In this document: piece after piece, positions 89 through 31,898 of the stretch
Layout of the letters: every line of letters starts with the position of its first letter
Numbering within the stretch: position 1 is the stretch's first letter
NCBI GenBank assembly: GCA_031398365.1
Contig: JANNND010000007.1
Span: forward strand, 1 to 42,600
Length of the DNA: 42,600 nucleotides
Direction: 5' to 3'
Origin: Blastocatellia bacterium
Lineage (GTDB): Bacteria > Acidobacteriota > Blastocatellia > RBC074
Made by a program: the position numbers and the translations under genes
The notes under the pieces: generated by a model
Seen by the model: the letters and a program-made list of their open reading frames with translations, nothing else
Told to the model about the DNA's origin: nothing
The model's database searches: none

Positions 89-151
89 CTCTGCGGAAAT
101 TGTTTTTCTTAAAAACTATAATAACCGAGCGCGCGGTACTGTTCCCGTAAG

Positions 152-193
152 TAAAAACGCGTGATGAGCAACCCTCACAATTACTCATCACGC
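152..193 (-). terminator. Intrinsic terminator ending the putative minus-strand ncRNA copy A
   Basis: GCGTGATGAG (159-168) / CTCATCACGC (184-193) perfect 10-bp stem; on the minus strand it is followed by GTTTTT. Confidence 0.6.
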
Positions 194-525
194 ATCCAGC
201 AACACCGGACGTAAACGCCCAGTAAACGTCCGGTCTCACCAGCAAGCGATTAAAATTCCCAATGGCTAAGGACGCTGCCTTCCTGCTTTGACTCGGAGGT
301 TCATTGGTCAAGAGCAGGAGAGTCGCCGCCTCCCAAAGACAAACCGAACGCTGCTGTTGCCGGCAGTGTTGGCGCGCTCTAGCTGCCTTGCGGGTTCCGC
401 ATGCGCTCTCCTCCACTACAACTTTCCCTGGTGAGACCGATGCCATTGGCTGCCGGATGGGTTAAAATAGTGTGTAACTCAACCACGTCAATGGGGCAAT
501 CAGGGTTGTTGTAGCTGCTCTCACT
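152..525 (-). ncRNA. Putative structured ncRNA, copy A (unknown family)
   Basis: Dense long-range complementarity: 416-430 with 501-514, GGTCTCACCAG 232-242 with CTGGTGAGACC 428-438, ACCGGACGT/ACGTCCGGT hairpin 204-234. Has a terminator and is homologous to the element at 6780-6925. No credible protein ORF. Confidence 0.55.
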
Positions 526-693
526 TACTGAAGCGGATTCGTCGGAAAAAAACTGGAGAACAATTTGCGAGGTTTTTCGTGCAAGCCGATTATCTGCGCC
601 CGTTCTGTATTTTGTCTGAGGCGCGTATCTTTTTCGCCGCCGTTGGCAATAATACATGGCGTCTTCCGCCCTCAATCCAGAAAGCAGGTTTTT

Positions 694-3600
694 ATGATCG
701 CTCGTCTTTTGTTTTCCCTCGCCGCTCTGCTCGCTCCGTTTACGCAATCCCCTGACTACGCCAGGCTCAAAGCTGAAGCGGAAAAATTCTATGCCGAAAA
801 ATCCTTCAGCCGCGCGCACGAACTGTATTTGCAGGCGGATCGCAAACAAGTCGCGCCAGACGAATTACGCTGGATTGAGTTTCGTTTAGGCGACACGCTC
901 TGGCGCGCGCAAGCCGCGACGACCACGAACGATGACACGAAGTTCGACTCCGCCCAGCAACAACTGGAATCCCTCATCAAAGAAGGCATTGGCGAAACGA
1001 AAGACCGCGACCGCATCTGGGCCGAAGCGCATGAATCACTGGGCGATTTATTCTGGACGCGACAGAACAGTCGCAATTATGGGCAAGCGTGGCCACATTA
1101 TCAGCAGGCATTGGAGTATTGGGCAGGAACCAAAGACATCGAAACTGCGCGGCAACGGTACGTGAACATCGTCTGGACAATGGCTGATCCACCGAACCGC
1201 GAGCAGTATTATTACTACGGTTATTACGGCAATCATATCTCGCTCGACATCCTCAGTAACGTTCTCAAGATTGCGAACAACGACAATGACAAAGCGCGCG
1301 CACATTACCTGCTGGCGATGACGATTCGTCAACAATACGGTAATGCGGAGCAGATGCAACGTGTGCCGGAAGAATTTGAAGCGGCGCTCAAAACCGGCAA
1401 AGCAAGCGAGTGGTACGACGATGCGCTCTATCACTACGCTGAATGGATGCAGAATCAGGGACGGACGATCATCACGCCTGATGGCGGTTGGCGACACGAA
1501 CAGGATTTTGTCAAAGCTCTGGAATTGTTTCGTCGCCTGACCAGCGAATTCAGCAAAGGGGAAACGCGCTACTTCGATCAGGCCAAATCGTATACGGAAT
1601 CCATCACGAAACCCACGCTCAGCGTGAACACCTCCAATGTGTTTTTGCCGGATTCAGAGATGCAGCTTCACCTGCAATGGCGCAACGTCAAGCAAGTGAG
1701 TTTCGCGCTCTACAAAGTGGATTTGACGCGCGATGTCAGCCTCAGCAGCCGCCGCGACAACTGGCTCCAAAGCATCACGCTTAATGAACGGGTCAAAGCC
1801 TGGACGAAACAAACCGACGACAAAGGCGATTACAAACCCGGCAACGAAGCCGTGCGCATAGACAGTAAATTGCCCGTTGGCGCATACGTTATCGAAGCCC
1901 AAGCGGGTAGCGAAAAGGCGCGCGATTTGTTGCTTGTGACCGACACCACGCTCGTCGTCAAATCCGCAGGCAAACAAACACTCGTGTATTTCTGCAACGC
2001 GATTGACGGCTCGCCGATTGCGAATGCAGCCGTCAAATTGTGGCAGCAGGATTACGAAAACAATCAAACGGTCTGGCATCCATACACGCAACAAACCAAT
2101 CAGGACGGCATTGCCATGATTGATTTGCGCAAGAATCAAAACTCCGCACAACTCTTCGTTGCCGCTTCGCTCAACAATCGCCAGGCGTTCAGTCAAGGCT
2201 ACAGCTACGACAACAACCGTAACCACGACCGCTGGAAGATTTATGCGTTCACGGATCGCCCCGCCTATCGCCCGAAAGAAACCGTGAACTGGAAATTCGT
2301 CGCGCGCAAATATCTGAACGATGCTTATTCGACGCCCGCAAATCAAACGATTGAATACGAAATCACCGACCCGAAAGGCACGAAAGTCAAAGAAGGCAAA
2401 GCCACGCTGAACACCTTCGGCAGCGCGTGGGGAACGCTCGAAATCGCAGAGAATCAACCGCTCGGTCAGTATCAAATTCAGTTCTACGATGCCGGTCGTC
2501 AGAATGGCATCGGCTCGGCTGGGCTTTTCCGCATCGAAGAGTACAAGTTGCCCGAATTCAAAGTCGCGGTTTCGACGCCGGAAGAAAACGGGCAGAAGAA
2601 AGCCTTTAAGCTCGGCGAAAAAGTCGAGGTGCAGGTGCAGGCGGATTATTACTTCGGCGGCGCGGTGAGCAATGCCGACATTGAATTGGTCGTGCATCAA
2701 AACCCCTTCCATCACCACTATCGCCCGACGCGCGATTACGATTGGTATTACGAAGATCAAAGCCGCAATTACTATGGCGGGCGCAACGGGCAAGTCATTA
2801 AGCGCGAGAAAATCAAAACCGATGCAAACGGCAAAGCGACGTTCAGCTTCGACACGCCGCGCAATGCCGGACAGGATTTTGAATACGCCATCGAAGCCCG
2901 CGTGACTGATTCATCGCGCCGCGAAATCACGGGTTCGGGAACCGTGCGCGTGACGCGGCAACGTTACTACGTGTATCCGCAAGCCAAGCACAATCTCTAT
3001 CGCCCGAACGACAAAGTTGCCGCTGACATCAAAGCACTCGACGCCAATAACCAGCCCGTGCAAGCCGAAGGTACGATCAAAGTCACGCGCGATTTCTGGT
3101 ACGAAATCTGGCTTGACGCGAACGGACGTGAAGTCAAAGGCGATGAATCGCGACGCTTGCAAAATCAGGCCGCGGCGATGCGGCAAGCGTTTCCGCCCGC
3201 GAATTGGAAATTGAAATTTCGCGGCTATCAGCACGACGACATCGCTACGCAAACCGTCAAAACCAATGACAAAGGCGAAGCCGAATTCAGCTTCACGCCC
3301 GCGCGCGAGGGCTACTATCGCATCGCGTGGAGCAGTGCGGACAAAGGCACGGCGATTATTCGCGGAGAGACTGCTGTATGGGTCACAACGAACGCGACGA
3401 CGGAACTTGGTTATCGGCACGGGGGCCTCGAAATTATCGTAGACAAAGACACCGCGCGCGCCGGGCAAAAAACGCCCGTGATGATTACGACGCCCGTCAG
3501 CAACCGCTACGTGCTGTTTTCGGTCGAAGGCGAAAGTCTAATGAGTTATCAATTGCTGCATCTGGACGGCACGGCGAAGCTGCTCGAACTGCCGATTGAA

Positions 3601-6600
3601 ACCAAGCACGAACCGAACGTATTTTTGAGCGCGGCGATGGTCAACGAACGGCAGTTGTTCACGGACACAAAACAACTCATCGTCCCGCCCGATCAGCATT
3701 TCCTCAACGTCGAAGTCACGGCGAATCAAGCACAATATCAACCGCGCGAAGACGGCACGTTGACGGTGACGACGAAAGACCGCGACGGCAAACCTGTTGC
3801 AGCAGAAGTTTCGCTCGGCTTGGTAGACGAATCTGTCTTTTACATTCAGCAGGATTTGGCTGGCGATCCGCGCAAGTTTTTCTATGGCAACAAGCGCAGG
3901 CAATACGTGCAAACCCAAAGCTCGTTTCAGCAAAAGCAGTATTTGAAATTGGTGGAAGGCAAGAATAATGAATTGCTGGATGACCGCATTGGCGAAGCGA
4001 AAGAACAACAAGGATACCTAAGACGCGAAGCTTACAAGAACGAGTTCCGCGTTGATGGTGCTGCGGATCGAATTGCGCCGATGAGCGGGGTAATGACGCA
4101 AACAGAAAGCCTCAGCATGAGTGGCGGCGTTGCGGGAGGCAGAGCGCGTGATGCTTCTAATGACCTCCCTATAAATGGTCGCCAATTCAATCAAGTATCT
4201 GAGCTAAAGCAAGTGGCAGCATTTCACGAGCTTGATGTCGCAGCCGTTTATAACGCAAGCCGTCCGTCCAACGTGGTCGTCCGCAATGATTTTCGCTCAA
4301 CCATTTTCTGGCAGCCCGATGTCGTCACGGGCAAAGATGGCAAGGCGACCGTGAAAGTAAAATACCCCGATTCAACCACAAGCTGGAAAGCGACCGCGCG
4401 TGCGGCTTCGGCGCAGAATCAATTCGGCATTGGTGACTGCACAACGCGCACGAAGATGCCGCTGCTCGTGCGGTTACAAGCGCCGCGCTTCTTTGTCGTT
4501 GGCGATCAAGTCATGGTTTCCGCCGTCATCAACAACAACACCGACAAAGCAATGACGGTTGCGCCTTCGATCAATGCGGACGGCGTAGTCGTGAGCGGTT
4601 TGGTGATTGATGGCAAACCAGTCAAAGGCGAACAAGCCCCTGTTAATATTGCTCCAAACAGCGAGAAGCGGGTGGATTGGCTGGTGTCGGTACGAACAGC
4701 AGGCAATGCCAAATTGAAAGTCACCGTACGCAGCGACAAGTTTGGGGATGCGATGGAACGCAGCTTTATCGTCCACGAACACGGCGTCGAAAAGTTCCTT
4801 GCCAAGTCGGGCAAGCTGCGTGGTGATGAAGTCACGATCAAACTCGACTTACCAAAAGAGCGCAAAGCCGAAGCGACGAACCTGACCGTGCAAGTTACGC
4901 CAAGTCTGGCTGTCACGATGCTGGATGCGTTGCCGTACCTGATTGATTATCCATACGGCTGTGTCGAGCAAACGATGAGTCGCTTTTTGCCTGCCGCGAT
5001 CACGGCGAAAACGCTCAAAGACTTGAAGCTTGACCCCGAAGAAGCGATGAGCAAAGTCTTCGGCGGCATCGAACGGCAATTCGTTGGCAAGACGCAGCCA
5101 CAAGGCGCGCGCAGCCTGCATCAAGTGGATGAACTGGTCGAAAAAGGCTTGGCGCGCCTCTACGATATGCAGCACGCGGACGGCGGCTGGGGCTGGTGGA
5201 AGGAAGGCGAGAGCGATCATTTTATGACTGCATATGTCGTGTGGGGAATGTCGCTAGGACAAGCGGCGGATGTGCGTTGCAAAGACGATGTTCTCGCACG
5301 CGCGAGAAACTACTTGGACTCTGCACTTGTGGAGGAAGAAAGCAACTTTGATCAGCAGGCGTGGATGCTACATGCATTAGCGGTAAAACACACTCCCAAG
5401 CCGGGTCCCCCACCAAGAACAATAAAATTCAGCGAATCTCAATTCAAGGCCTTCAATAATCTCTGGAAGAACCGCGAGAAACTAAATGCTTATTCCCGCG
5501 CACTACTTGCTTTGAGCGCACATCATTTCGACCGTACAGAGGAGGCAAAAATCCTCGTGCAGAATTTGGAAAACGGCGTGAAACGCGACCTTGCGCCGGA
5601 CACTTCGATTCTTATCAAAGGCGAACAAAAATCCGATGCGTCCACAATGGGTACGGCGCATTGGGGCGAAGACGGTTTGTCCTATCGTTGGTCAGAGGGC
5701 GGCGTAGAGGCTACGGCGTGGGGGCTGCGCGCGTTGTTAGCGATTGATCCAACCAACAAATTGATCGAACCCGTTACCAACTGGCTCATCAAAAATCGGC
5801 GCGGCGCACAGTGGAGTAACACGCGCGACACGGCGATGGTCCTACTGACGATGAACGAATACTTGCGCACGAGCGGCGAACTGAACACCGAGTTGGAATA
5901 CGAAGTACAAGTCAACGGACAAGCGATTGCGACCAAGAAGTTGACGCCCGCCGAAGTCTTCAGCGCGCCGAGCCAATTTGCAATCAATCGTGAATTCCTG
6001 AAAGACGGCGCAAACGAAATCCGCATCGCGCGCAAGAGCGGCCAAGGCGCGCTCTACTTTGCGGCAAACGCGCAATTCTTCAGCCGCGAAGAAGGTATCA
6101 AAGCAGCAAGCAGTGAAATCTTCGTGAAGCGCGAATACTACAAACTGGTCGGGCGTCCGACGTTGCTGAAAGGCTATGTGTACGACAAGGTGAAATTGAC
6201 CGAAGGCGAGACGGTGAAGAGCGGCGAGCGCATCGAAACCGTGCTGACGATTGAAGCCAAAAACAATTATGAGTATTTGCTCTTCGAGGATTTGAAGCCC
6301 GCTGGCTTTGAAGCCGTGCAATTGCAAAGTGGTCAACCGTTGTATGCGCAACAACTGAAAGAAAGCGATCTCGCCAATTCCGCAATCCGCAATCAGTACG
6401 TTTATCAGGAACTGCGCGACCGCAAAGTTGCTTTGTTTCTGAATCGCTTGCCCGAAGGTGTGTGGCAAATTCGCTATGAGATGCGCGCCGAAACGCCGGG
6501 AACGTTTCACGCGCTGCCGGTGCTGGGACACGCGATGTATGTGCCGGAAATTCGGTGCAATGGCGAAGAGTTGAGGGTAATTGTGCAGGATCAGCAATAA
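694..6600 (+). CDS. Alpha-2-macroglobulin family protein (bacterial A2M) with N-terminal TPR-like extension and intact thioester motif
   Basis: MG2-type FTDRPAYRP, A2M-type VRNDFRSTIFWQP and LQAPRFF, thioester YPYGCVEQT (Cys codon 4960), C-terminal AMYVPE. ATG 694 gives a signal peptide (MIARLLFSLAALLAP); the ORF track's TTG 565 start is unlikely. Confidence 0.95.
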   Translation: MIARLLFSLAALLAPFTQSPDYARLKAEAEKFYAEKSFSRAHELYLQADRKQVAPDELRWIEFRLGDTLWRAQAATTTNDDTKFDSAQQQLESLIKEGIGETKDRDRIWAEAHESLGDLFWTRQNSRNYGQAWPHYQQALEYWAGTKDIETARQRYVNIVWTMADPPNREQYYYYGYYGNHISLDILSNVLKIANNDNDKARAHYLLAMTIRQQYGNAEQMQRVPEEFEAALKTGKASEWYDDALYHYAEWMQNQGRTIITPDGGWRHEQDFVKALELFRRLTSEFSKGETRYFDQAKSYTESITKPTLSVNTSNVFLPDSEMQLHLQWRNVKQVSFALYKVDLTRDVSLSSRRDNWLQSITLNERVKAWTKQTDDKGDYKPGNEAVRIDSKLPVGAYVIEAQAGSEKARDLLLVTDTTLVVKSAGKQTLVYFCNAIDGSPIANAAVKLWQQDYENNQTVWHPYTQQTNQDGIAMIDLRKNQNSAQLFVAASLNNRQAFSQGYSYDNNRNHDRWKIYAFTDRPAYRPKETVNWKFVARKYLNDAYSTPANQTIEYEITDPKGTKVKEGKATLNTFGSAWGTLEIAENQPLGQYQIQFYDAGRQNGIGSAGLFRIEEYKLPEFKVAVSTPEENGQKKAFKLGEKVEVQVQADYYFGGAVSNADIELVVHQNPFHHHYRPTRDYDWYYEDQSRNYYGGRNGQVIKREKIKTDANGKATFSFDTPRNAGQDFEYAIEARVTDSSRREITGSGTVRVTRQRYYVYPQAKHNLYRPNDKVAADIKALDANNQPVQAEGTIKVTRDFWYEIWLDANGREVKGDESRRLQNQAAAMRQAFPPANWKLKFRGYQHDDIATQTVKTNDKGEAEFSFTPAREGYYRIAWSSADKGTAIIRGETAVWVTTNATTELGYRHGGLEIIVDKDTARAGQKTPVMITTPVSNRYVLFSVEGESLMSYQLLHLDGTAKLLELPIETKHEPNVFLSAAMVNERQLFTDTKQLIVPPDQHFLNVEVTANQAQYQPREDGTLTVTTKDRDGKPVAAEVSLGLVDESVFYIQQDLAGDPRKFFYGNKRRQYVQTQSSFQQKQYLKLVEGKNNELLDDRIGEAKEQQGYLRREAYKNEFRVDGAADRIAPMSGVMTQTESLSMSGGVAGGRARDASNDLPINGRQFNQVSELKQVAAFHELDVAAVYNASRPSNVVVRNDFRSTIFWQPDVVTGKDGKATVKVKYPDSTTSWKATARAASAQNQFGIGDCTTRTKMPLLVRLQAPRFFVVGDQVMVSAVINNNTDKAMTVAPSINADGVVVSGLVIDGKPVKGEQAPVNIAPNSEKRVDWLVSVRTAGNAKLKVTVRSDKFGDAMERSFIVHEHGVEKFLAKSGKLRGDEVTIKLDLPKERKAEATNLTVQVTPSLAVTMLDALPYLIDYPYGCVEQTMSRFLPAAITAKTLKDLKLDPEEAMSKVFGGIERQFVGKTQPQGARSLHQVDELVEKGLARLYDMQHADGGWGWWKEGESDHFMTAYVVWGMSLGQAADVRCKDDVLARARNYLDSALVEEESNFDQQAWMLHALAVKHTPKPGPPPRTIKFSESQFKAFNNLWKNREKLNAYSRALLALSAHHFDRTEEAKILVQNLENGVKRDLAPDTSILIKGEQKSDASTMGTAHWGEDGLSYRWSEGGVEATAWGLRALLAIDPTNKLIEPVTNWLIKNRRGAQWSNTRDTAMVLLTMNEYLRTSGELNTELEYEVQVNGQAIATKKLTPAEVFSAPSQFAINREFLKDGANEIRIARKSGQGALYFAANAQFFSREEGIKAASSEIFVKREYYKLVGRPTLLKGYVYDKVKLTEGETVKSGERIETVLTIEAKNNYEYLLFEDLKPAGFEAVQLQSGQPLYAQQLKESDLANSAIRNQYVYQELRDRKVALFLNRLPEGVWQIRYEMRAETPGTFHALPVLGHAMYVPEIRCNGEELRVIVQDQQ

Positions 6601-6629
6601 CTGAAACCCGCAAATTTGAAACCTCCTGA

Positions 6630-6892
6630 CGCCTGCCACGGTGCTGGCACATTGGTAAAAATGGATAATAGAGGCGATGGAAAGTCAGCGAGAGTGGGAG
6701 GACGCTCGCAAGTCGGGGCCAACGAAATACGTGAGTGGTTCCGGTAGTCTCAGCATAACATTGAGCCTACGACGCGTGGCATCCCCCCGCATCAGACATT
6801 TCCCCATTTGAACTACAGCGCTGCCGGCGGGTTCAGACCCGAAGTCTGAGCGTTGCTCAATGGGGTATTCGGGGCGTCTGATTACTCTCACT
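6630..6892 (-). ncRNA. Putative structured ncRNA, copy B (homologue of copy A); 3' end uncertain
   Basis: ATCAGACATTTCCCC 6791-6805 pairs with GGGGCGTCTGAT 6871-6882; TCAGAC-CCGAA-GTCTGA hairpin; shares conserved blocks with 416-558. Confidence 0.5.
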
Positions 6893-6950
6893 AGCTACAG
6901 CGGAGTTATCAGAAAAAAACTGGAGTGCGGGATAAAAATTTTTGAAAATA

Positions 6951-7016
6951 TCTTCACGTAGTAGCGAATTCATTCACTGTTGGGCGCGAGCAAATAAATT
7001 TGCTACTACGTGAAGA
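6951..7016. repeat. GTAG-type REP-like inverted repeat
   Basis: Perfect 15-bp arms TCTTCACGTAGTAGC (6951-6965) / GCTACTACGTGAAGA (7002-7016) with an imperfect inner GAATTCATT/AATAAATTT extension. Confidence 0.7.
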
Positions 7017-7020
7017 GCAT

Positions 7021-7050
7021 TTGCCAAAGCCAAATCCCACCGCGTATGCT
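7021..7050 (+). promoter_or_regulatory. Putative sigma70 promoter for the lactate permease
   Basis: TTGCCA-N18-TATGCT about 45 nt before ATG 7095; GGAG ribosome-binding site at 7083. Confidence 0.4.
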
Positions 7051-7094
7051 GCGCAGCGAAGCAGTATCACACCTTTTCACACGGAGAAAATTCA

Positions 7095-8714
7095 ATGCCC
7101 TGGACTCAAGTCTATTCGCCTGTCGCTGGCAATTTATTACTTTCTGCGCTTGTCGCTGCGATCCCGGTCGTCGTGTTGCTGGGCCTGCTCGCATTCTTTC
7201 ACGTGCGCGCGCACATTGCGGCCATCGTGGGCTTAATCGTGTCGTTATTGATCGCGATTGTGGTCTATCAGATGCCTGTGACATTGGCCTTGGCAGCGGC
7301 GGGAAATGGCGCGGCCTATGGTTTATTTCCGATTGGCTGGATCGTGTTGTGCGCGATTTTTATTTATGACATTACGGTGGAAACGGGGCAGTTTGAAATC
7401 ATTCGCGCGACGATTGCCAACCTGGCCAGCGATGATCGCATTCAAGCGTTAATCATCGCATTTAGCTTTGGCGCATTTATCGAAGGCGCAGCGGGATTCG
7501 GAACCCCGGTCGCGATTTCGGCGGCGATGCTGATTGGCCTCGGCTTCAAACCATTGCTGGCATCCGGCATTGCGTTGATTGGCAACACCGCGCCCGTTGC
7601 CTTTGGTGCTTTAGGAACACCTGTCATTGCGTTGGCGCGCGTAACGGGGCTGCCGCTGGAACAACTGAGCGCGATGATTGGGCGGCAACTGCCGTTCTTT
7701 TCCGTGATCGTGCCGTTCTGGTTGATTTGGGCAATGTCCGGCTGGCGCAAAATGGTGGAAGTTTGGCCCGCATGTCTGACCTGCGGATTGAGCTTTGCTG
7801 TGGTGCAGTTTCTGGTCAGCAATTATCACGGCCCCTGGGTCGTAGACATCGCGGCTTCGATAGCATCCATCGCGGCGATGCTGGTATTGCTCAAGTTTTG
7901 GCAACCACGCGAAATCATGCGGCAACACCAGAACGAAGTCGCCGATGCCAAGCCTTCGACCCGCGCCGCGCTGATTGCGTGGATGCCGTGGATTATCTTG
8001 TCCGTCGTCGTGTTCGTGTGGGGCTTGCCACAAGTCAAAGCGTGGCTGAACAATGTCGGCCTCATCAACTTCACCGTGCCGTACTTGCACAATCAAGTGC
8101 AACGCGTCCCGCCCGTCGTCATGCAGCCCAAAGCGGAAGAAGCGATCTTTGCGCTGAACTGGTTGTCGGCAACGGGAACCGGATTGTTGATTTCCGGCCT
8201 GATTTCGGGCTTGTTATTGGGCTTGAGCCCGATGAAATTGCTGCGGATGTTTGGCAATACATTGTGGCGCGTGCGGTATTCGCTGGTGACGATTGCAGCG
8301 ATGTTGGCACTGGGCTTTTCGACGCGCTATGCCGGATTGGACGCGACGATGGGCTTGGCGTTTGCGAGTACGGGCAGCCTGTTTCCGTTCTTCTCGGCGC
8401 TGCTTGGCTGGCTCGGCGTCGCGCTCACGGGCAGCGACACGTCGTCCAATGTCCTCTTTGGTAACTTACAGCAAATCACCGCGCAACAAGTCGGCATCTC
8501 GCCCGTATTGGCGGCAGCGGCGAACTCTTCGGGCGGTGTAATGGGCAAAATGATTGACGCCCAATCCATCGTTGTCGCAGGCGTGGCAACAGGGCAGGAA
8601 GGCAACGAAGGCGAAATTTTGCGCTATGTGTTCTTTCATAGTTTGGCACTGGCGATTTTGGTCGGCGTGTTGATTTACCTGCAAGCGTATGTGTTTCCGG
8701 GTATGGTGCCTTAA
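7095..8714 (+). CDS. lctP: L-lactate permease (LctP/LldP family)
   Basis: Polytopic membrane protein with [33 protein letters not shown] and GKMIDAQS motifs. Confidence 0.93.
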
Positions 8715-8815: not shown

Positions 8816-10426
8816 ATGAATTTATCCTTTCTGTTCCAAAATGCGCCCGATCCCGAAGAAATGCGGCGGTTACTGCTGCCGATTTATCGCAATGGGCGCG
8901 AGAATTTGAGCTACTTAACTTCGCTGGATGGCTCCGACATCGCGGTCATTACTTTGTATTTCACGCTGCTGGGATTGATGGCGATTTTGGGGTTGTATCG
9001 GTTGCGGATGGTCTATCATTTTTGGCGCTACAAAGACATTAAGCCACACCCCAAACGACAATTTGCTGAGGCTGAATTGCCGCGCATCACGGTGCAGCTT
9101 CCTCTTTTTAATGAACTTTATGTCGTCGAACGCTTGCTGGAAGCGGTGACGAAACTGGATTACCCAAGACATTTGCTGGAAATTCAGGTCTGTGATGACT
9201 CGACGGACGAAACCATCAACATCGCAGAAGCAGCGGTGGCCAAATATAAAGCCGAAGGCCACGACATTCACTACCTTCATCGCACGGATCGTACAGGGTT
9301 CAAGGCGGGCGCGCTGGAAAACGCGATGAAGCAGGCGAGCGGGGAATTGCTGGCGATCTTCGATGCGGACTTTTTGCCGAAGCCGGATTGCCTGCGCAAG
9401 ATGGTAGATTATTTCAGCAATGAACAAGTCGGCATGGTGCAGATGCGGTGGAGCCACATCAATGCGGATTATTCGCTGCTGACGCGGATTCAGGAAATCA
9501 TGCTGGACGGGCATTTTGTCGTCGAGCAGACCTCGCGCAATCGCACTGGCGCATTCTTCAACTTCAACGGTACGGCAGGCATGTGGCGCAAACAGGCAAT
9601 TGAATGGTCAGGCGGTTGGCAACACGACACGTTGACAGAAGACACGGATTTAAGCTTTCGCGCACAGTTGATGGGCTGGCGCTATGTGTATTTGCTGGAC
9701 GATGATGTTCCGGCGGAATTACCTGTGGAAATCAATGCTTTCAAGGCTCAGCAACGCCGTTGGGCAAAGGGGCTGGTGCAGGTCGGGCTGAAATTGATCC
9801 CGCGCATTTGGAAGCATCCGACCTTGTCCAAAGCGCAGAAAATCGAATTGGTCTTTCGGCTGAATGGCAATCTGGCCGCACCGCTGATGATTCTGCTGAG
9901 CCTGCTGCATATTCCGGTGCTGATCGCGCGCTTCAATCAAGGGCTGTTTCACATGCTGCTGCTGGATGCGCCGCTGATGATTCTTTCGACGCTATCCGTC
10001 GCGGCGTTTTACGGCTCGGCAATTTTGTATTTGCACCCGGACAAAAAGCGCCGCTTATGGTTGTTGCCGATTGTGATGGGGATGGGAATTGGTTTGGTCT
10101 TCTCGAATACGCGCGCCGTGTTGGAAGCGCTTTTCCGCATCAAGTCGAGCTTCGTCCGCACGCCGAAATATGCAGTCAAGCAATCGCAGGACAATTGGCT
10201 GAAGCAGGCAAGCAAATATCAGCGCAAACATGGGTGGTTACCCTATATTGAATTGTCCTTTGCGCTGTATTTCGTGGCCGCAATTGCCTACGCCATTCGC
10301 AGCGAAATCTATGGCACGATCCCGTTTCTGATGATCTTTTTGGTCGGCTACGGGTATATGGGATTGATGTCATTGTTTCAGGGAACCGCGCGCACGGTGC
10401 TACAACGATGGCGGGAAAAAGCTTAG
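8816..10426 (+). CDS. GT2 cellulose-synthase-like processive glycosyltransferase
   Basis: QLPLFNE, DDSTD, FKAGAL, FDADF, LTEDTD and QQRRWAKG (D,D,D,QxxRW) motifs; C-terminal TM helices and FVRTPK. Confidence 0.92.
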   Translation: MNLSFLFQNAPDPEEMRRLLLPIYRNGRENLSYLTSLDGSDIAVITLYFTLLGLMAILGLYRLRMVYHFWRYKDIKPHPKRQFAEAELPRITVQLPLFNELYVVERLLEAVTKLDYPRHLLEIQVCDDSTDETINIAEAAVAKYKAEGHDIHYLHRTDRTGFKAGALENAMKQASGELLAIFDADFLPKPDCLRKMVDYFSNEQVGMVQMRWSHINADYSLLTRIQEIMLDGHFVVEQTSRNRTGAFFNFNGTAGMWRKQAIEWSGGWQHDTLTEDTDLSFRAQLMGWRYVYLLDDDVPAELPVEINAFKAQQRRWAKGLVQVGLKLIPRIWKHPTLSKAQKIELVFRLNGNLAAPLMILLSLLHIPVLIARFNQGLFHMLLLDAPLMILSTLSVAAFYGSAILYLHPDKKRRLWLLPIVMGMGIGLVFSNTRAVLEALFRIKSSFVRTPKYAVKQSQDNWLKQASKYQRKHGWLPYIELSFALYFVAAIAYAIRSEIYGTIPFLMIFLVGYGYMGLMSLFQGTARTVLQRWREKA

Positions 10427-10497
10427 TCTGTAGGGTCTGTAGAGTCTTGAAAGTCGAGACTCTACAGACCCTACAGACTTTACAGACTTTATGGACT
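10426..10497. repeat. Hairpin built of 9-bp tandem units (CTACAGAC-type); possible terminator
   Basis: GTCTGTAGGGTCTGTAGAGTCT is the exact reverse complement of AGACTCTACAGACCCTACAGAC, followed by further TTTACAGAC units. Confidence 0.75.
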
Positions 10498-24669: not shown

Positions 24670-24788
24670 GAAATCAAAAGGCAAAGGGCAAAAGTGAAAA
24701 GGGCGGAACTTATTTATTTATGGAAGTAAGAAATTTACTTCACTTCTTACTTTTGCCTTTTGATATTTGCCTTTTGCCTTTTGATTTC
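24670..24788. repeat. Heptamer (AAAAGGC-type) long inverted repeat
   Basis: Perfect 16-bp arms GAAATCAAAAGGCAAA / TTTGCCTTTTGATTTC with more degenerate units inside and a central GAAGTAA/TTACTTC hairpin. Confidence 0.75.
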
Positions 24789-25459: not shown

Positions 25460-27082
25460 TTAGATGACTTGCTTACGTTCGCGTGAACCGGGGATACGCA
25501 ATTGATCGCGGTATTTGGCGACCGTGCGGCGCGAAAGTTTTTGTCCTTCCTGCGCGAGAATCTTGGCAATCTCATCGTCGGTGAGAGGGTTTTTTGCGTC
25601 TTCAGCTTCAATCATTTTTTTGATTTTGAGTTTAATAATGCGGGTCGAAACTTCCTCGCCGTCTTCGTTTGTCATGCCTTCTGTGAAGAAGCGGCGCAAC
25701 TCAATCACGCCTTGCGGGGTGTGCGCATATTTGCCGTTGACAACGCGCGACACAGTCGAAAGATGCATGCCAATGTCTTCGGAAATATCCTTGAGCATCA
25801 TCGGTTTGATGTATTCGACGCCGCGATCCAGAAAGTCGCGCTGGCGATAGACGATTTGCTCACAGACCCGATAAATGGTTTGTTTGCGATGCTCAATATT
25901 TTTCAGCAAATCCACGGCGGAGCGAAAACGGTCTTTGATGTAATCGCGCGTTTCCTTCGAGGTATCTTTATTTTCCATCATCCGCCGATATTGCGAATTG
26001 ATGCGAAGCTGCGGCAGTCCGTCATCATTGAAGCGAATGAGGTAATCGTCATCCATTTTTTCAATGTAGACTTCCGGCTCGACATACTGCGCATTGCTCG
26101 GCGCGAACTTGCGGCCTGGATGCGGTTCGAGCTGTTTGATCAGTTTGAGTTCGTTGACAATGTCTTCAATCGGGATGTTCAGTTCGCGCGACAATTCGGG
26201 CAGCTTGTGATTTTGCAATTTGTAAAAATGCTGTAGTACCAAGGCGACCGCCAACCGATCTCCATAACCCAGCAGGCGCAATTGCAGCGCCAGGCACTCT
26301 TGCAAATTACAAGCTCCGACGCCGGGCGGGTCAAACTGGGCGATCACGTCGAAGGCCTGATTCACAGTTTCCATTGACCAGCCACCGAGTTCGGCAATCT
26401 CTTCGCGCGTGCCTTCCAGATACCCATCATTATTCAGATTGCCGATGATGGCCTCGGCGGCGGCGCGCACGTCCGGCGTGGTTTGCGTCATCCGCAATTG
26501 CCAATCCAAGTATTCGCCCAAAGTTTGTTCCGAGGACAGGAATTGCTCAAAGGTGGGGCCTTCTTTGGTTTCGGTTTCACGCGTGCGATAGCCGGGATCA
26601 AGATACTCTTCAAACGTTTGCCCGAAATCAATTTCCTCAAATGAATCGCGCTCGCCTACTTCTCTTTCGCCCGTATCATTGGTGCTGGCAGTGGTCGTCG
26701 CGGATGCCGCACCTTCGGCGTAATTATCAAAGCTGTTGTCGTTGCTAAATTCACGGGTTTCGTTGCCGCCGAAATCACTGGCTTCGCCCGCGCCATTCAC
26801 ATAATTTGTGGTTTCGCTGCCCGCGCTATAATCATTGGTTCCGTTGAGCGCGCTGGCAGGAGAGTCTTCGGCAAAATCCGTGCCGCCCAGACTGGGCGCT
26901 ACGGAAATTTCTTCGGGCGAGAGTTCTTCGAGAATGGGGTTTTCCTGTAATTGCTGCGTGACTAAATCACCCAATTCCATCTTCGTCATTTGCAGCATTT
27001 CAATGCGTTGCCGGAGCTGCGGGGTAAGTACCAGCCCAAGGTTTTGACGAAGTGATTGTGAGAGTCCCTGCTTGAATGACAT
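25460..27082 (-). CDS. rpoN: RNA polymerase sigma-54 factor
   Basis: LTPQLRQ region [23 protein letters not shown] RpoN box. Confidence 0.97.
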
Positions 27083-30291: not shown

Positions 30292-30369
30292 GGCGGGTAT
30301 AGCTCAGTTGGTTAGAGCGCCAGATTGTGGCTTTGGAGGTCGTGGGTTCGAGACCCACTACTCGCCCCA
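30292..30369 (+). tRNA. tRNA-His (GUG)
   Basis: G-1, acceptor GCGGGTA/TACTCGC, D-arm AGCTCAGTTGGTTAGAGC, anticodon loop TTGTGGC, T-loop GGTTCGAGACC, C73, encoded CCA. Confidence 0.97.
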
Positions 30370-30406: not shown

Positions 30407-30522
30407 TCAATCCAATCTCTTCCTGAAACTCGCGTCGTGCTGCGATCATAAACGCGCAATGTTCATCGGCGCTCGTACTCAATTCCTCTGCGCCTTGTCA
30501 TAAATCCTGATGATTTACAGTT
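30407..30522 (-). pseudogene. Decayed duplicate of the 3' end of the HD-domain gene
   Basis: Aligns without gaps to 31349-31464; translates TVNHQDL*QGAEELSTSADEHCAFMIAARREFQEEIGL versus TVNRQDLWQGAEELGLSFDEHCAFVIAALREIQEEIGL. Confidence 0.85.
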
Positions 30523-31331: not shown

Positions 31332-31898
31332 TCAACCCTCACTTTGTCTCAATCCAATCTCTTCCTGAATCTCCCGCAATGCCGCAATCACGAACGCGCA
31401 ATGTTCATCGAAGCTCAATCCCAACTCTTCCGCGCCCTGCCATAAATCCTGACGATTCACTGTGCGCGCAAACGCTTTGTCTTTGATCTTTTTTTTGACC
31501 GACAACACTTTCAGCGTATCCAAACTCTTGTCCGCTCGCACGAGCGCGCAGGCCGTCAAAAAGCCACACAATTCATCCGTCGCAAACAGCGTATGTTCCA
31601 GCAGGCTTTCGCGTTTCACTCCCGTGTAATCAGCGTGCGAGAGAATCGCGCGAATGACCTCTTCGCTGTAGCCTTTGGCGCGCAATGTTGCGGAGGCGAG
31701 TTGCGGGTGGCGCTGGTCGGGATAGCGTTCGTAATCGAAGTCGTGCAACAGGCCGACAAGGCCCCATTGGGCTTCATCCCTTCCATACTTTTTCATGGCA
31801 TATTCGACGGCGCGGGCGTGTTTGCGCAGGCTTTCGCTGCGCGTCCATTCGCATAATAATTCCCACGCTTCCTGCCGGGTTGGTAATGGTGTTGCCAG
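31332..31898 (-). CDS. HD (HDIG) domain metal-dependent phosphohydrolase, probable CTG start
   Basis: GLLHDFDYE, ILSHA, DELCGF, KDKAFAR; the in-frame conserved N-terminus PTRQEAWELLCEWTRSESLRKH lies upstream of ATG 31796. Confidence 0.85.
   Translation of the reverse strand: MATPLPTRQEAWELLCEWTRSESLRKHARAVEYAMKKYGRDEAQWGLVGLLHDFDYERYPDQRHPQLASATLRAKGYSEEVIRAILSHADYTGVKRESLLEHTLFATDELCGFLTACALVRADKSLDTLKVLSVKKKIKDKAFARTVNRQDLWQGAEELGLSFDEHCAFVIAALREIQEEIGLRQSEG

What the first reader, a model, noticed from the sequence alone, without database searches (positions are those of the whole stretch)
406..6925. Two diverged copies of a structured non-coding element flank the alpha-2-macroglobulin gene: candidate new ncRNA family
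Seen: 416-558 (A) and 6791-6925 (B) are co-linear in the same orientation. Conserved blocks are TTTCCC, GCTGCCGG..GGGTT (449/6820), TCAATGGGG (488/6857), CTCTCACT (518/6885), AGCGGA (532/6899) and GAAAAAAACTGGAG (545/6912); the last 41 nt align without gaps. Between the blocks lie unrelated segments of similar length (20 vs 15 nt; 24 vs 23 nt). The closing stem differs in sequence but still pairs: CTACAAC-TTT-CCCTG / CAGGG-TT-GTTGTAG in A and ATCAGACA-TTT-CCCC / GGGG-CGTCTGAT in B. Inference: compensatory change points to selection on RNA structure. G-U pairs and the terminator at 152-193 favour minus-strand transcription. A constant scaffold with variable inserts resembles guide/bridge-type RNAs or paralogous sRNAs. 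I do not recognise the family, and no partner protein is evident in the window.
Basis: partly seen in the sequence, partly recalled or inferred. Interest (0 to 1): 0.85.

Follow-up and report, generated by a model that had tools for sequence, protein, structure and literature searches.

The report
Paired structured RNA genes flanking A2M
Two diverged copies of a folded, non-coding RNA gene of about 215 bases, each behind the same unusual promoter, sit on either side of a protease-inhibitor gene in one genus of soil-type Acidobacteria; the RNA matches no described family and its job is unknown.

Summary
The repeat is real and larger than reported. Copy A is about 579-146 and copy B about 6946-6688, both read on the minus strand.

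Each copy has two parts:
- A roughly 55-nt promoter-like motif.
- A roughly 215-nt RNA core (A 522-308, B 6889-6688). It folds as a three-way junction: closing helix P1 plus two long arms closed by P3 and P2.

On a sequence-only alignment of 18 copies, 94.4% of cells in these helices pair, against 83.1% in shuffles (0 of 500 reached it) and 40-50% in slid controls. Ten pairs change on both sides.

No Rfam family matches. Full-length copies (20) occur in 13 of 14 genomes of one genus and in none of 73 other genomes of the family.

The promoter motif also precedes protein genes in the same orientation, including a secreted M4 protease and a weakly sigma/anti-sigma-like operon. It has the -35 box and spacing of the genome's flagellin promoter, but it does not co-occur with FliA.

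G-U counts, RNAalifold energies and a conserved terminator after copy A favour the minus strand. The guide or bridge-RNA reading is not supported. Function is unknown and no expression data were found.

The parts
525..579 (-). Promoter-like motif of copy A. Read on the minus strand it has an A-rich upstream block, a -35-like CTCCAGTTTTTTT (558-546) and a -10-like TCCGCTT (537-531). The start of transcription is inferred at about 524-522.
   Evidence: Motif HMM hit 576-517, E 4.2e-11. R3 hit 514-577, 51.6 bits. It aligns almost without gaps with 31 other instances. The same motif stands 22-217 nt upstream of protein-gene starts in the same orientation.
308..522 (-). Core of RNA copy A, 215 nt, a three-way junction. 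P1 is 522-517 with 315-310. Arm I is 515-415, closed by P3 (515-509 with 421-415). Arm II is 411-317, closed by P2 (411-406 with 322-317).
   Evidence: R2 covariance-model hit 308-522, 167.5 bits. Helix coordinates come, with P2 read from the sequence.
194..307 (-). 3' extension of copy A, conserved within the genus. It includes the hairpin ACCGGACGU...ACGUCCGGU (234-204).
   Evidence: Conserved across 8 orthologues. Sequence motifs located. Fold.
146..193 (-). Intrinsic terminator of copy A on the minus strand: 10-bp stem (193-184 with 168-159), 15-nt loop, then GUUUUUAC.
   Evidence: Read from the sequence. The hairpin and U-run are kept in 9 of 12 A-type copies examined. The terminator scan did not flag it because its loop exceeds that tool's 8-nt limit.
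6892..6946 (-). Promoter-like motif of copy B: AAAAATTTTTAT block, -35-like CTCCAGTTTTTTT (6925-6913) and -10-like TCCGCTG (6904-6898).
   Evidence: Motif HMM hit 6943-6885, E 1.3e-13. R3 hit 6882-6944, 58 bits.
6688..6889 (-). Core of RNA copy B, 202 nt. P1 is 6889-6884 with 6695-6690. P3 is 6882-6876 with 6797-6791. P2 is 6787-6782 with 6702-6697. The 3' end is undetermined.
   Evidence: R2 hit 6688-6889, 149.4 bits. Helix coordinates. No canonical terminator follows in any of 6 B-type copies. Transcription would run antisense into the 3' end of the A2M gene.
694..6600 (+). Alpha-2-macroglobulin gene lying between the two RNA genes. It is context, not shown to be part of the system.
   Evidence: Pfam bMG10, MG2, A2M, A2M_BRD and TED_complement. 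In G004 the two RNA genes lie about 520 nt apart, with only a remnant of the A2M 3' end between them.

Best explanation
A and B are two paralogous, independently transcribed genes for a structured non-coding RNA, read on the minus strand.

Each gene starts at a promoter recognised by an alternative sigma factor. The motif, read on the minus strand, is an A/T-rich block, then (C/T)TC(C/A)AGTTTT, a fixed spacer, and CCGCTT. Transcription is inferred to begin at the conserved GAGAGC.

That 5' end pairs with GCUCU(C/U) about 200 nt downstream to form helix P1. P1 closes a three-way junction with two long arms. Copy A continues for about 160 nt to a hairpin and U-run terminator, giving roughly 375 nt in total. 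The 3' end of copy B is unknown.

The same promoter type drives a small regulon. In this genome it comprises a secreted M4 metalloprotease, a small protein followed by a secreted protein, and an operon of a weakly sigma-region-4-like protein with a weakly zf-HC2 anti-sigma-like membrane protein. The RNAs are therefore most likely the RNA output of that regulon, acting in trans. Because nearly all conserved sequence sits in helices, I favour action through a bound protein or a tertiary fold over a long single-stranded seed.

Shown here: the homology, the base-paired architecture with covariation, the restriction to one genus, and the shared motif with fixed orientation and distance to genes. 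Inferred: transcription itself, the start site, the 3' ends, the identity of the sigma factor and any trans-acting function.
For: Structure:
- On the MAFFT-only alignment A5 (18 copies), the 19 pairs of P1, P3 and P2 are 94.4% paired. Shuffles gave 83.1% (0 of 500 reached the observed value) and slid controls gave 39.5-50.0%.
- Ten pairs change on both sides, covering 56 cells against 19.5 in shuffles (0 of 500). The covariation score is 0.463, against 0.235 in shuffles and 0.063-0.085 in slid controls.
- RNAalifold on the model-guided alignment predicts 26 pairs, 15 of them with compensatory changes.
- 17 of 18 single-sequence minus-strand folds give P1, P3 and P2 together.

Strand:
- RNAalifold energy favours the minus strand in all three subfamilies: -113.6 vs -93.8, -116.1 vs -89.2 and -118.3 vs -113.1.
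- In P1, P2 and P3 there are 24 G-U cells read on the minus strand against 9 read on the plus strand. In helices predicted on both strands the counts are 35 and 21.
- A hairpin and U-run on the minus strand follow 9 of 12 A-type copies.
- The minus-strand fold of 140-530 has z = -4.5, and 0 of 100 shuffles fold as well.

Promoter:
- 32 distinct instances align almost without gaps.
- Outside A and B, 8 of 10 instances in other genera are followed in the same orientation by an ORF start 22-206 nt downstream. L087 counts by its MKKAAMKM start. The other two are followed by a terminator.
- Three further own-genome instances precede ORFs: C266, C300 and the weak C23.
- Orthologous genes keep the motif at the same distance. 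The M4 protease has it 139-140 nt upstream in G001 and G007 and at a like distance in G000. The 71-75-aa protein has it in G000, G001 and G009.
- The sigma-like gene has the motif upstream in G000, G006, G001 and G004.
- The own flagellin promoter CTCAAGTTTTTTTCGTATCCGTTCGATAAG shares the -35 box and the spacing.

Not a known family.

Distribution: 20 full-length copies in 13 of 14 genomes of genus g1.
Against: - There is no expression evidence of any kind, so the start site, the 3' ends and even transcription are inferred.
- Four of the six P1 pairs never vary. Its 5' strand is also conserved in front of protein genes, so it may be constrained as promoter or start region rather than as RNA.
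- Single-sequence folding does not separate the strands for the core of A: plus z -2.3, minus z -1.4.
- Copy B has no recognisable terminator in any of 6 copies.
- The strand counts come from related sequences and are not independent events.
- The proposed loop-loop contact between CCGGCAGC in arm I and ACUGCCGG in arm II shows no compensation. G010's A copy has CCACUAGC with an unchanged partner.
- No target or partner was found.
Confidence: 0.7

Rival explanations
1. The main role is local. Both RNA genes act in cis on the A2M gene. B is transcribed convergently into the A2M 3' end, acting by antisense or transcriptional interference. A fires divergently from the A2M promoter region. Together they would couple A2M output to the regulon that also makes a secreted M4 protease.
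For: - B's core ends about 90 nt from the A2M stop codon in G000. In G001, G004, G010 and G005 the A2M 3' end follows the core much more closely. No terminator lies between them in any of 6 copies.
- A's promoter lies about 115-170 nt from the A2M start codon.
- The order B, then A2M, then A is kept in G000, G001, G005, G010 and G011. In G006 the two copies lie on separate contigs.
- The regulon includes an M4 protease, and A2M is a protease inhibitor.
Against: - In G004 both RNA genes persist about 520 nt apart with most of A2M deleted.
- Five species (G002, G007, G008, G009, G012) have only the A copy.
- An interference role would not need a conserved 215-nt three-way junction with compensatory changes.
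Confidence: 0.12
2. The elements are plus-strand cis-regulatory leaders, riboswitch-like, of the downstream plus-strand genes: A2M for copy A and L-lactate permease for copy B.
For: - Both copies lie 136-170 nt upstream of plus-strand genes.
- The plus-strand fold of A's core is slightly more stable than the minus-strand fold: -84.6 vs -79.6 kcal/mol.
- The putative pairing of CCGGYAGU with GCUGCCGG has G-U pairs only when read on the plus strand.
Against: - The two downstream genes are unrelated.
- In G004 copy A is followed by the 3' remnant of A2M and copy B instead of a full A2M gene.
- RNAalifold energies and G-U counts favour the minus strand.
- The block nearest the genes is a motif that elsewhere faces away, towards minus-orientation genes.
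- The hairpin and U-run at 193-146 work only on the minus strand.
Confidence: 0.08
3. It is only a conserved DNA control region, made of promoters and regulator binding sites for the flanking genes, with no functional RNA.
For: Part of the conserved sequence is indeed a DNA-level promoter motif. The whole intergenic region 150-690 is conserved within the genus.
Against: DNA binding sites do not explain compensatory changes between positions 95-210 nt apart. There were 10 pairs with double changes, and the slid controls collapse to 40-50% paired.
Confidence: 0.04
4. It is a guide-type RNA (bridge RNA, omega RNA or similar) or the remnant of a mobile element, with programmable variable segments.
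For: CCGG-containing blocks recur.
Against: - There are only two copies per genome, at syntenic sites across the genus.
- No transposase-like neighbour was seen. The flanking genes are A2M, lactate permease and a GT2 glycosyltransferase.
- The variable segments at 464-487 and 6834-6856 are a hairpin stem with compensatory changes.
- The best genomic matches of the four variable segments are 13-14 nt, with E 0.07-0.6.
Confidence: 0.03

Closest known systems
Small RNAs made from alternative-sigma promoters. Examples are the sigma-28-dependent sRNAs of E. coli (PMC10578931; I saw only the search listing and the start of the abstract) and the sigma-E-dependent MicA/RybB (recalled).
   Same: The RNA genes share a specialised promoter with the protein genes of one regulon. 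There are paralogous copies, and copy A ends in an intrinsic terminator.
   Different: - The core is much larger (about 215 nt) and almost wholly base-paired, forming a three-way junction.
- No seed region or target was found.
- The sigma factor is unidentified.
- No sequence or Rfam relationship exists.
Sigma-28 (FliA) class promoters, consensus TAAAGTTT-N11-GCCGATAA (recalled), and this genome's own flagellin promoter.
   Same: The -35 box TC(A/C)AGTTTTTTTC and the distance to the CG of the -10 box are the same as in the own flagellin promoter. An A/T-rich block lies upstream in both.
   Different: - The -10 box is CCGCTT, not (G/T)CGATAA, in all 32 instances.
- The motif is present in 22 of 22 genomes of genus g12, none of which has a FliA match over the curated cut-off.
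- It is also present in five g1 genomes without such a match.
Large 'ornate' orphan bacterial RNAs of unknown function, such as raiA, ROOL, GOLLD and OLE (recalled as a class; all are in Rfam).
   Same: A multi-helix conserved fold supported by covariation, with no coding potential and no known function.
   Different: There was no Rfam hit at E <= 10 on the element. This RNA is smaller and was found in a single genus.

Membership tests
Any Rfam 15 family | Score at or above the family's gathering threshold, or at least a credible E-value, on either strand | tested here: not met
   At gathering thresholds the whole window gives only the tRNA at 30293-30366. Region 200-720 at E <= 10 gives 0 hits. 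Region 6600-7120 gives 4 weak hits. The best is MIR9408 at 25.2 bits against a threshold of 90. Three lie on the hairpin region 6938-7047. One, IRES_mnt at 9.1 bits against a threshold of 100, overlaps B's promoter and the first bases of its core (6851-6964).
FliA (sigma-28) regulon | Promoter with a TAAAGTTT-like -35 box and 11-12 nt spacing to the -10 box | tested here: met
   The -35 box and spacing are the same as in the own flagellin promoter. The consensus itself is recalled, not taken from a call.
FliA (sigma-28) regulon | -10 box GCCGATAA with a CGA core | tested here: not met
   The -10 box reads (C)CGCT(T) in 31 of 32 instances and TGCT in own C266. It never reads CGAT.
FliA (sigma-28) regulon | The motif occurs only where FliA is encoded | tested here: not met
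   The motif is in 64 of 87 genomes of the family. FliA scores over its cut-off in 20 of 87. In genus g12 the motif is in 22 of 22 genomes and FliA in 0 of 22. G002, G007, G008, G009 and G012 have the motif and the RNA but no FliA over the cut-off. The tallies include the unpublished genome G015.
Guide RNAs of mobile elements (bridge RNA, omega RNA) | Encoded next to the cognate recombinase or nuclease gene | tested here: not met
   The neighbours are A2M, L-lactate permease and a GT2 glycosyltransferase. In relatives the left neighbour is an unidentified plus-strand ORF that I did not scan. I did not scan the whole window for transposases.
Guide RNAs of mobile elements (bridge RNA, omega RNA) | Variable unpaired segments complementary to target or donor DNA | tested here: not met
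   464-487 and 6834-6856 are the P6 hairpin, which shows compensatory changes. 429-448 and 6805-6819 lie in the paired or internal-loop part of arm I in the folds. The best matches in the genome are 13-14 nt, E 0.07-0.6. Phage collections were not searched.
Riboswitch / cis-acting leader | Lies in the 5' UTR on the same strand as a functionally coherent set of downstream genes | tested here: not met
   Strand evidence favours the strand opposite to A2M and lctP. The two genes are unrelated. On the minus strand copy A ends in a terminator with no gene after it.
MITE / insertion-sequence end | Many copies, terminal inverted repeats, variable locations | tested here: not met
   There are two copies in the genome, at syntenic positions in 13 genomes. 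I saw no terminal inverted repeat flanking either copy among the 25 longest inverted repeats shown.
Terminator-ended trans-acting sRNA gene | Own promoter and own intrinsic terminator, with no ORF | tested here: inconclusive
   For copy A the feature is met by sequence. The indels among orthologues are not multiples of three. Copy B has the promoter motif but no terminator. Expression was not tested.

The most novel reading that the evidence does not exclude
The RNA is a new class of compact, highly structured functional RNA: a three-way junction whose two arms carry conserved, mutually complementary CCGG-containing blocks. It would work through its tertiary fold, by sequestering a protein, sensing a ligand or catalysing a reaction. 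It would be the RNA arm of a previously undescribed alternative-sigma regulon of Acidobacteriota. That regulon governs secreted hydrolases, and the RNA genes are wired next to the cell's own protease inhibitor, A2M.
Probability: 0.15. Interest if true: 0.7.

Novelty: new member of a known kind. Interest (0 to 1): 0.5.

Why it matters
Hardly any regulatory RNA has been described for Acidobacteriota, which are abundant in soils and hard to culture. Two literature searches found no paper on such an RNA in Blastocatellia or Acidobacteria.

This locus offers three things at once:
- A covariation-supported RNA fold with no described family.
- A promoter motif found in 64 of 87 genomes of the family. 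It defines a small regulon of secreted proteins and at least two unrelated RNA genes.
- A natural experiment in RNA gene duplication within one genus.

If the RNA does act on the secreted M4 protease or the A2M inhibitor, it would link riboregulation to extracellular proteolysis and self-protection.

It remains a narrow, lineage-specific RNA with no functional data, so the finding is solid but of moderate reach.

Tried and rejected
- Earlier findings of this scan: nothing by place, by sequence or by words.
- Metagenome scan with GAGAGYARYYAN{6,16}CCCCATTGN{25,55}CCGGCAGC: one stretch (L204). Model R2 does not match it (0 hits), so it is a chance match.
- BLAST in the own genome found no third copy.
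I dropped it.
- FliA as the sigma factor: rejected by the lack of co-occurrence.
- A strict regular expression for sigma-28-like promoters gave 13 hits, of which only A, the flagellin promoter and C23 are convincing.
- The C300 protein as cognate sigma factor is unresolved. It has only sub-threshold matches: Sigma70_r4_2 at 17.1 bits against a cut-off of 25.7, and its neighbour zf-HC2 at 21.1 against 22.2. It has no NCBIfam match. Its homologues in other genomes lie in frames of about 350-400 aa and belong to a family with many paralogues, so the presence/absence pattern is not clean.
- Target search: the variable segments have no match above chance. RNAduplex of A and B against five 5' regions gave z between -1.0 and +1.1.
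- Loop-loop (kissing) pairing between the arms: no compensatory support.
- Coding potential: the ORF 446-27 on the minus strand is not conserved, because indels among orthologues break the frame.
- mafft-qinsi was not available.
- The terminator scan does not flag 146-193 because of its loop-size limit.
Full report
**1. Observation**

A global alignment of 406-570 against 6781-6937 scores 89.5. In 300 dinucleotide shuffles the mean was 37.7, sd 5.7 and maximum 59.5. The repeat finder reports the ungapped 41-nt block 518-558 / 6885-6925 at 80% identity. The listed blocks are at the stated positions. BLAST of A against the whole 7.07-Mb assembly finds only A and B.

**2. Extent**

The homology continues to the left of both segments. 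Orthologues in related genomes show that the whole interval 150-690 is conserved non-coding sequence.

A sequence-only model of the full unit (R1) scores 150.7 bits on 310-560 and 141 bits on 6689-6929.

By the record titles of the nearest lactate-permease loci, the window belongs to Acidobacteriota, probably Blastocatellia. The closest titles are 'Acidobacteria bacterium' at 89% and 'Blastocatellia bacterium' at 77%. The genes around the copies are:
- an alpha-2-macroglobulin gene, 694-6600;
- an L-lactate permease gene, 7095-8714;
- a GT2 glycosyltransferase gene.

**3. Not a known family**

Rfam at gathering thresholds finds only a tRNA in the window. At E <= 10 there are no hits in 200-720. 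In 6600-7120 there are four weak hits. Three lie on an unrelated hairpin region at 6938-7047. The fourth is a 9.1-bit IRES match, against a threshold of 100, that overlaps B's promoter edge.

Two literature searches gave no paper on such an RNA in Blastocatellia or Acidobacteria. I saw listings and abstract starts only. Supplementary files were not consulted.

**4. Structure**

Written on the minus strand, each core is a three-way junction.
- P1 joins the first six bases, GAGAGC, to GCUCU(C/U) about 200 nt downstream.
- P2 closes arm II.

In copy A the coordinates are P1 522-517 with 315-310, P3 515-509 with 421-415, and P2 411-406 with 322-317. In copy B they are P1 6889-6884 with 6695-6690, P3 6882-6876 with 6797-6791, and P2 6787-6782 with 6702-6697.

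I counted these 19 pairs on alignment A5, which has 18 copies, was made by MAFFT alone and was not fitted to any structure:

| Measure | Observed | Shuffles | Slid controls |
|---|---|---|---|
| Cells paired | 94.4% | 83.1% (0 of 500 as high) | 39.5-50.0% |
| Pairs changed on both sides | 10 | 8.1 (44 of 500 as high) | 1-6 |
| Cells changed on both sides | 56 | 19.5 (0 of 500 as high) | 1-8 |
| Covariation score | 0.463 | 0.235 (0 of 500 as high) | 0.063-0.085 |

P3 has double changes at 6 of its 7 pairs. P1 has four invariant pairs and one pair that switches from C-G to U-A in three B copies.

RNAalifold on the model-guided alignment A6 independently returns P1, P3, P2 and a hairpin in arm I. 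That is 26 pairs, 15 of them with compensatory changes. Single-sequence folds give the same architecture in 17 of 18 copies; A_G007 lacks P3.

The inner parts of both arms differ between subfamilies, and I did not resolve them. A tempting contact between CCGGCAGC in arm I and ACUGCCGG in arm II has no compensatory support.

**5. The right-hand end is a promoter motif**

The last roughly 55 nt of each unit recur alone at other places in this genome and in other genera of the family.

Read on the window's minus strand the motif is: AAAAAWWTTTT, N8, (C/T)TC(C/A)AGTTTT, N8-9, A(Y)TCCGCTT, N7, GAGAGC. Thirty-two distinct instances align almost without gaps.

Outside A and B, 8 of 10 instances from other genera are followed in that orientation by an ORF start 22-206 nt downstream. 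Two of these starts have no clear ribosome-binding site. L087 is counted by its MKKAAMKM start. The remaining two instances (G108 and G096) are followed after about 200 nt by a hairpin and U-run with no plausible ORF. That is an unrelated RNA gene behind the same promoter.

The own genome has three further instances:
- C266, upstream of a secreted thermolysin-type M4 protease (Peptidase_M4, 105.5 bits).
- C300, upstream of a 150-aa protein with a sub-threshold Sigma70_r4_2 match. It is followed by a membrane protein with sub-threshold zf-HC2 / ChrR-type anti-sigma matches and by secreted proteins.
- C23, a weak instance upstream of a 71-aa protein and a secreted protein.

Orthologous genes in other species keep the motif at the same distance. 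The M4 protease has it 139-140 nt upstream in G001 and G007 and at a like distance in G000. The small protein has it in G000, G001 and G009. The C300-type gene has the motif upstream in G000, G006, G001 and G004.

This behaviour is what a promoter shows. The conserved GAGAGC then marks the start region of the transcripts. That P1 includes these bases, with one covarying pair and a G-U in two copies, argues that they are transcribed.

**6. Which sigma factor**

The genome has a FliA/WhiG sigma factor (256 bits, over the cut-off) and flagellin genes.

The flagellin promoter reads CTCAAGTTTTTTTCGTATCCGTTCGATAAG. It has the same -35 box and the same distance to the CG of the -10 box as the motif, but a canonical CGATAA where the motif has CGCTT. 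The sigma-28 consensus is recalled from memory.

The motif is found in 64 of 87 genomes of the family, whereas FliA scores over its cut-off in 20 of 87. Genus g12 has the motif in 22 of 22 genomes and FliA in none. Five species of the own genus have the motif and the RNA without FliA. These tallies include the unpublished genome G015.

So the promoter has sigma-28-like geometry but is most likely read by another sigma factor. The C300 protein is a candidate and nothing more.

**7. Strand**

Four lines of evidence favour the minus strand.
- The orientation of the promoter motif, as above.
- A hairpin at 193-159 followed by GUUUUU. It is conserved in 9 of 12 A-type copies and works only on the minus strand. 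The three copies of the most distant subfamily have a long perfect hairpin instead.
- RNAalifold energies favour the minus strand in all three subfamilies.
- G-U cells in P1, P2 and P3 number 24 when read on the minus strand and 9 when read on the plus strand. In helices predicted on both strands the counts are 35 and 21.

Single-sequence z-scores are mixed for the core of A. For 140-530 they are clear: z = -4.5 on the minus strand.

**8. Distribution and history**

The structured model R2 finds 20 full-length copies, at 113-175 bits, in 13 of 14 genomes of genus g1. The genome without a copy, G013, is 67% complete.

Among the 73 other genomes of the family the best hit is 21.3 bits. In an even sample of 151 genomes of the class, only g1 genomes match. 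Three others reach only 19-21.5 bits.

Seven species carry both A and B. Five more distant species carry only A, and G003 shows a truncated B-like hit at a contig end. Where both copies lie on one contig the order is B, then A2M, then A (G000, G001, G005, G010, G011). In G004 most of A2M is deleted and the two RNA genes lie about 520 nt apart. The RNA is therefore not dependent on A2M.

**9. What it most likely does**

I commit to two stand-alone RNA genes, expressed with a small regulon of secreted proteins from a specialised promoter and acting in trans. Because nearly all conserved sequence lies inside helices, I think a protein-binding or tertiary-fold mechanism more likely than seed pairing.

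A local, cis-acting effect on A2M is the main alternative. In that reading B runs antisense into the A2M 3' end, because no terminator lies between them in any of 6 copies.

None of this is shown. No RNA run was available (see Tried and rejected), no target stood out, and the 3' end of B is unknown.

**10. Verdict**

It is partly wrong on the boundaries, on the promoter being taken for scaffold, and on the guide-RNA analogy.

It is a new, genus-restricted member of a known kind, a bacterial structured small RNA under alternative-sigma control. The family-wide promoter motif is a useful by-product.

Noticed in passing
L089 (G108:C1718, about 1191-1470) and L090 (G096:C43, about 1350-1634): In another genus (g12) the same promoter motif is followed after about 200 nt by a strong hairpin and U-run, with no plausible ORF. 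This looks like a different RNA gene under the same promoter type. It does not match model R2.
   Followed up: partly
G000:C266:22570-22630 (-), C300:2119-2182 (-), C23:1083-1145 (+): These are the own-genome protein-gene members of the motif regulon. They are a secreted M4 (thermolysin-like) protease, an operon of a weakly sigma-region-4-like protein with a weakly zf-HC2 membrane protein and secreted proteins, and a 71-aa protein with a large secreted protein of no Pfam family.
   Followed up: partly
L103 (G000:C300) 1612-2061 (-): The 150-aa sigma-4-like protein matches only the C-terminal 130 residues or so of open frames of 350-400 aa in other genomes (for example G004, G010, G011, G090). 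It may be truncated or split in G000, G006 and G001.
   Followed up: no
window 6951-7016: An inverted repeat with 24-nt arms, 92% complementary, lies between B's promoter and the lactate-permease gene. It gave the only weak (spurious microRNA) Rfam hits. It is not conserved in the B orthologues I looked at.
   Followed up: partly
window 30407-30521 and 31349-31463: A direct repeat of about 115 nt, 80-82% identical, lies just after the tRNA at 30293-30366. The second copy lies inside the minus-strand ORF 31332-31796. It is probably the shared 3' end of two paralogous small genes.
   Followed up: partly
window 10425-10479: A near-perfect 26-nt palindrome (96%, 3-nt loop) lies directly after the glycosyltransferase ORF that ends at 10426. 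It is likely a terminator.
   Followed up: no
window 24670-24788: A cluster of overlapping inverted repeats (33-nt arms, 88%) built from GCAAAAG / CTTTTGC-like units.
   Followed up: no
G000:C409, upstream of the 533-aa flagellin frame (match 25688-26044, -): A canonical-looking sigma-28 promoter, CTCAAGTTTTTTTCGTATCCGTTCGATAAG, lies about 110 nt upstream of the flagellin start codon. The genome also encodes FliA (C515:3477-4139), so this acidobacterium is probably motile.
   Followed up: partly
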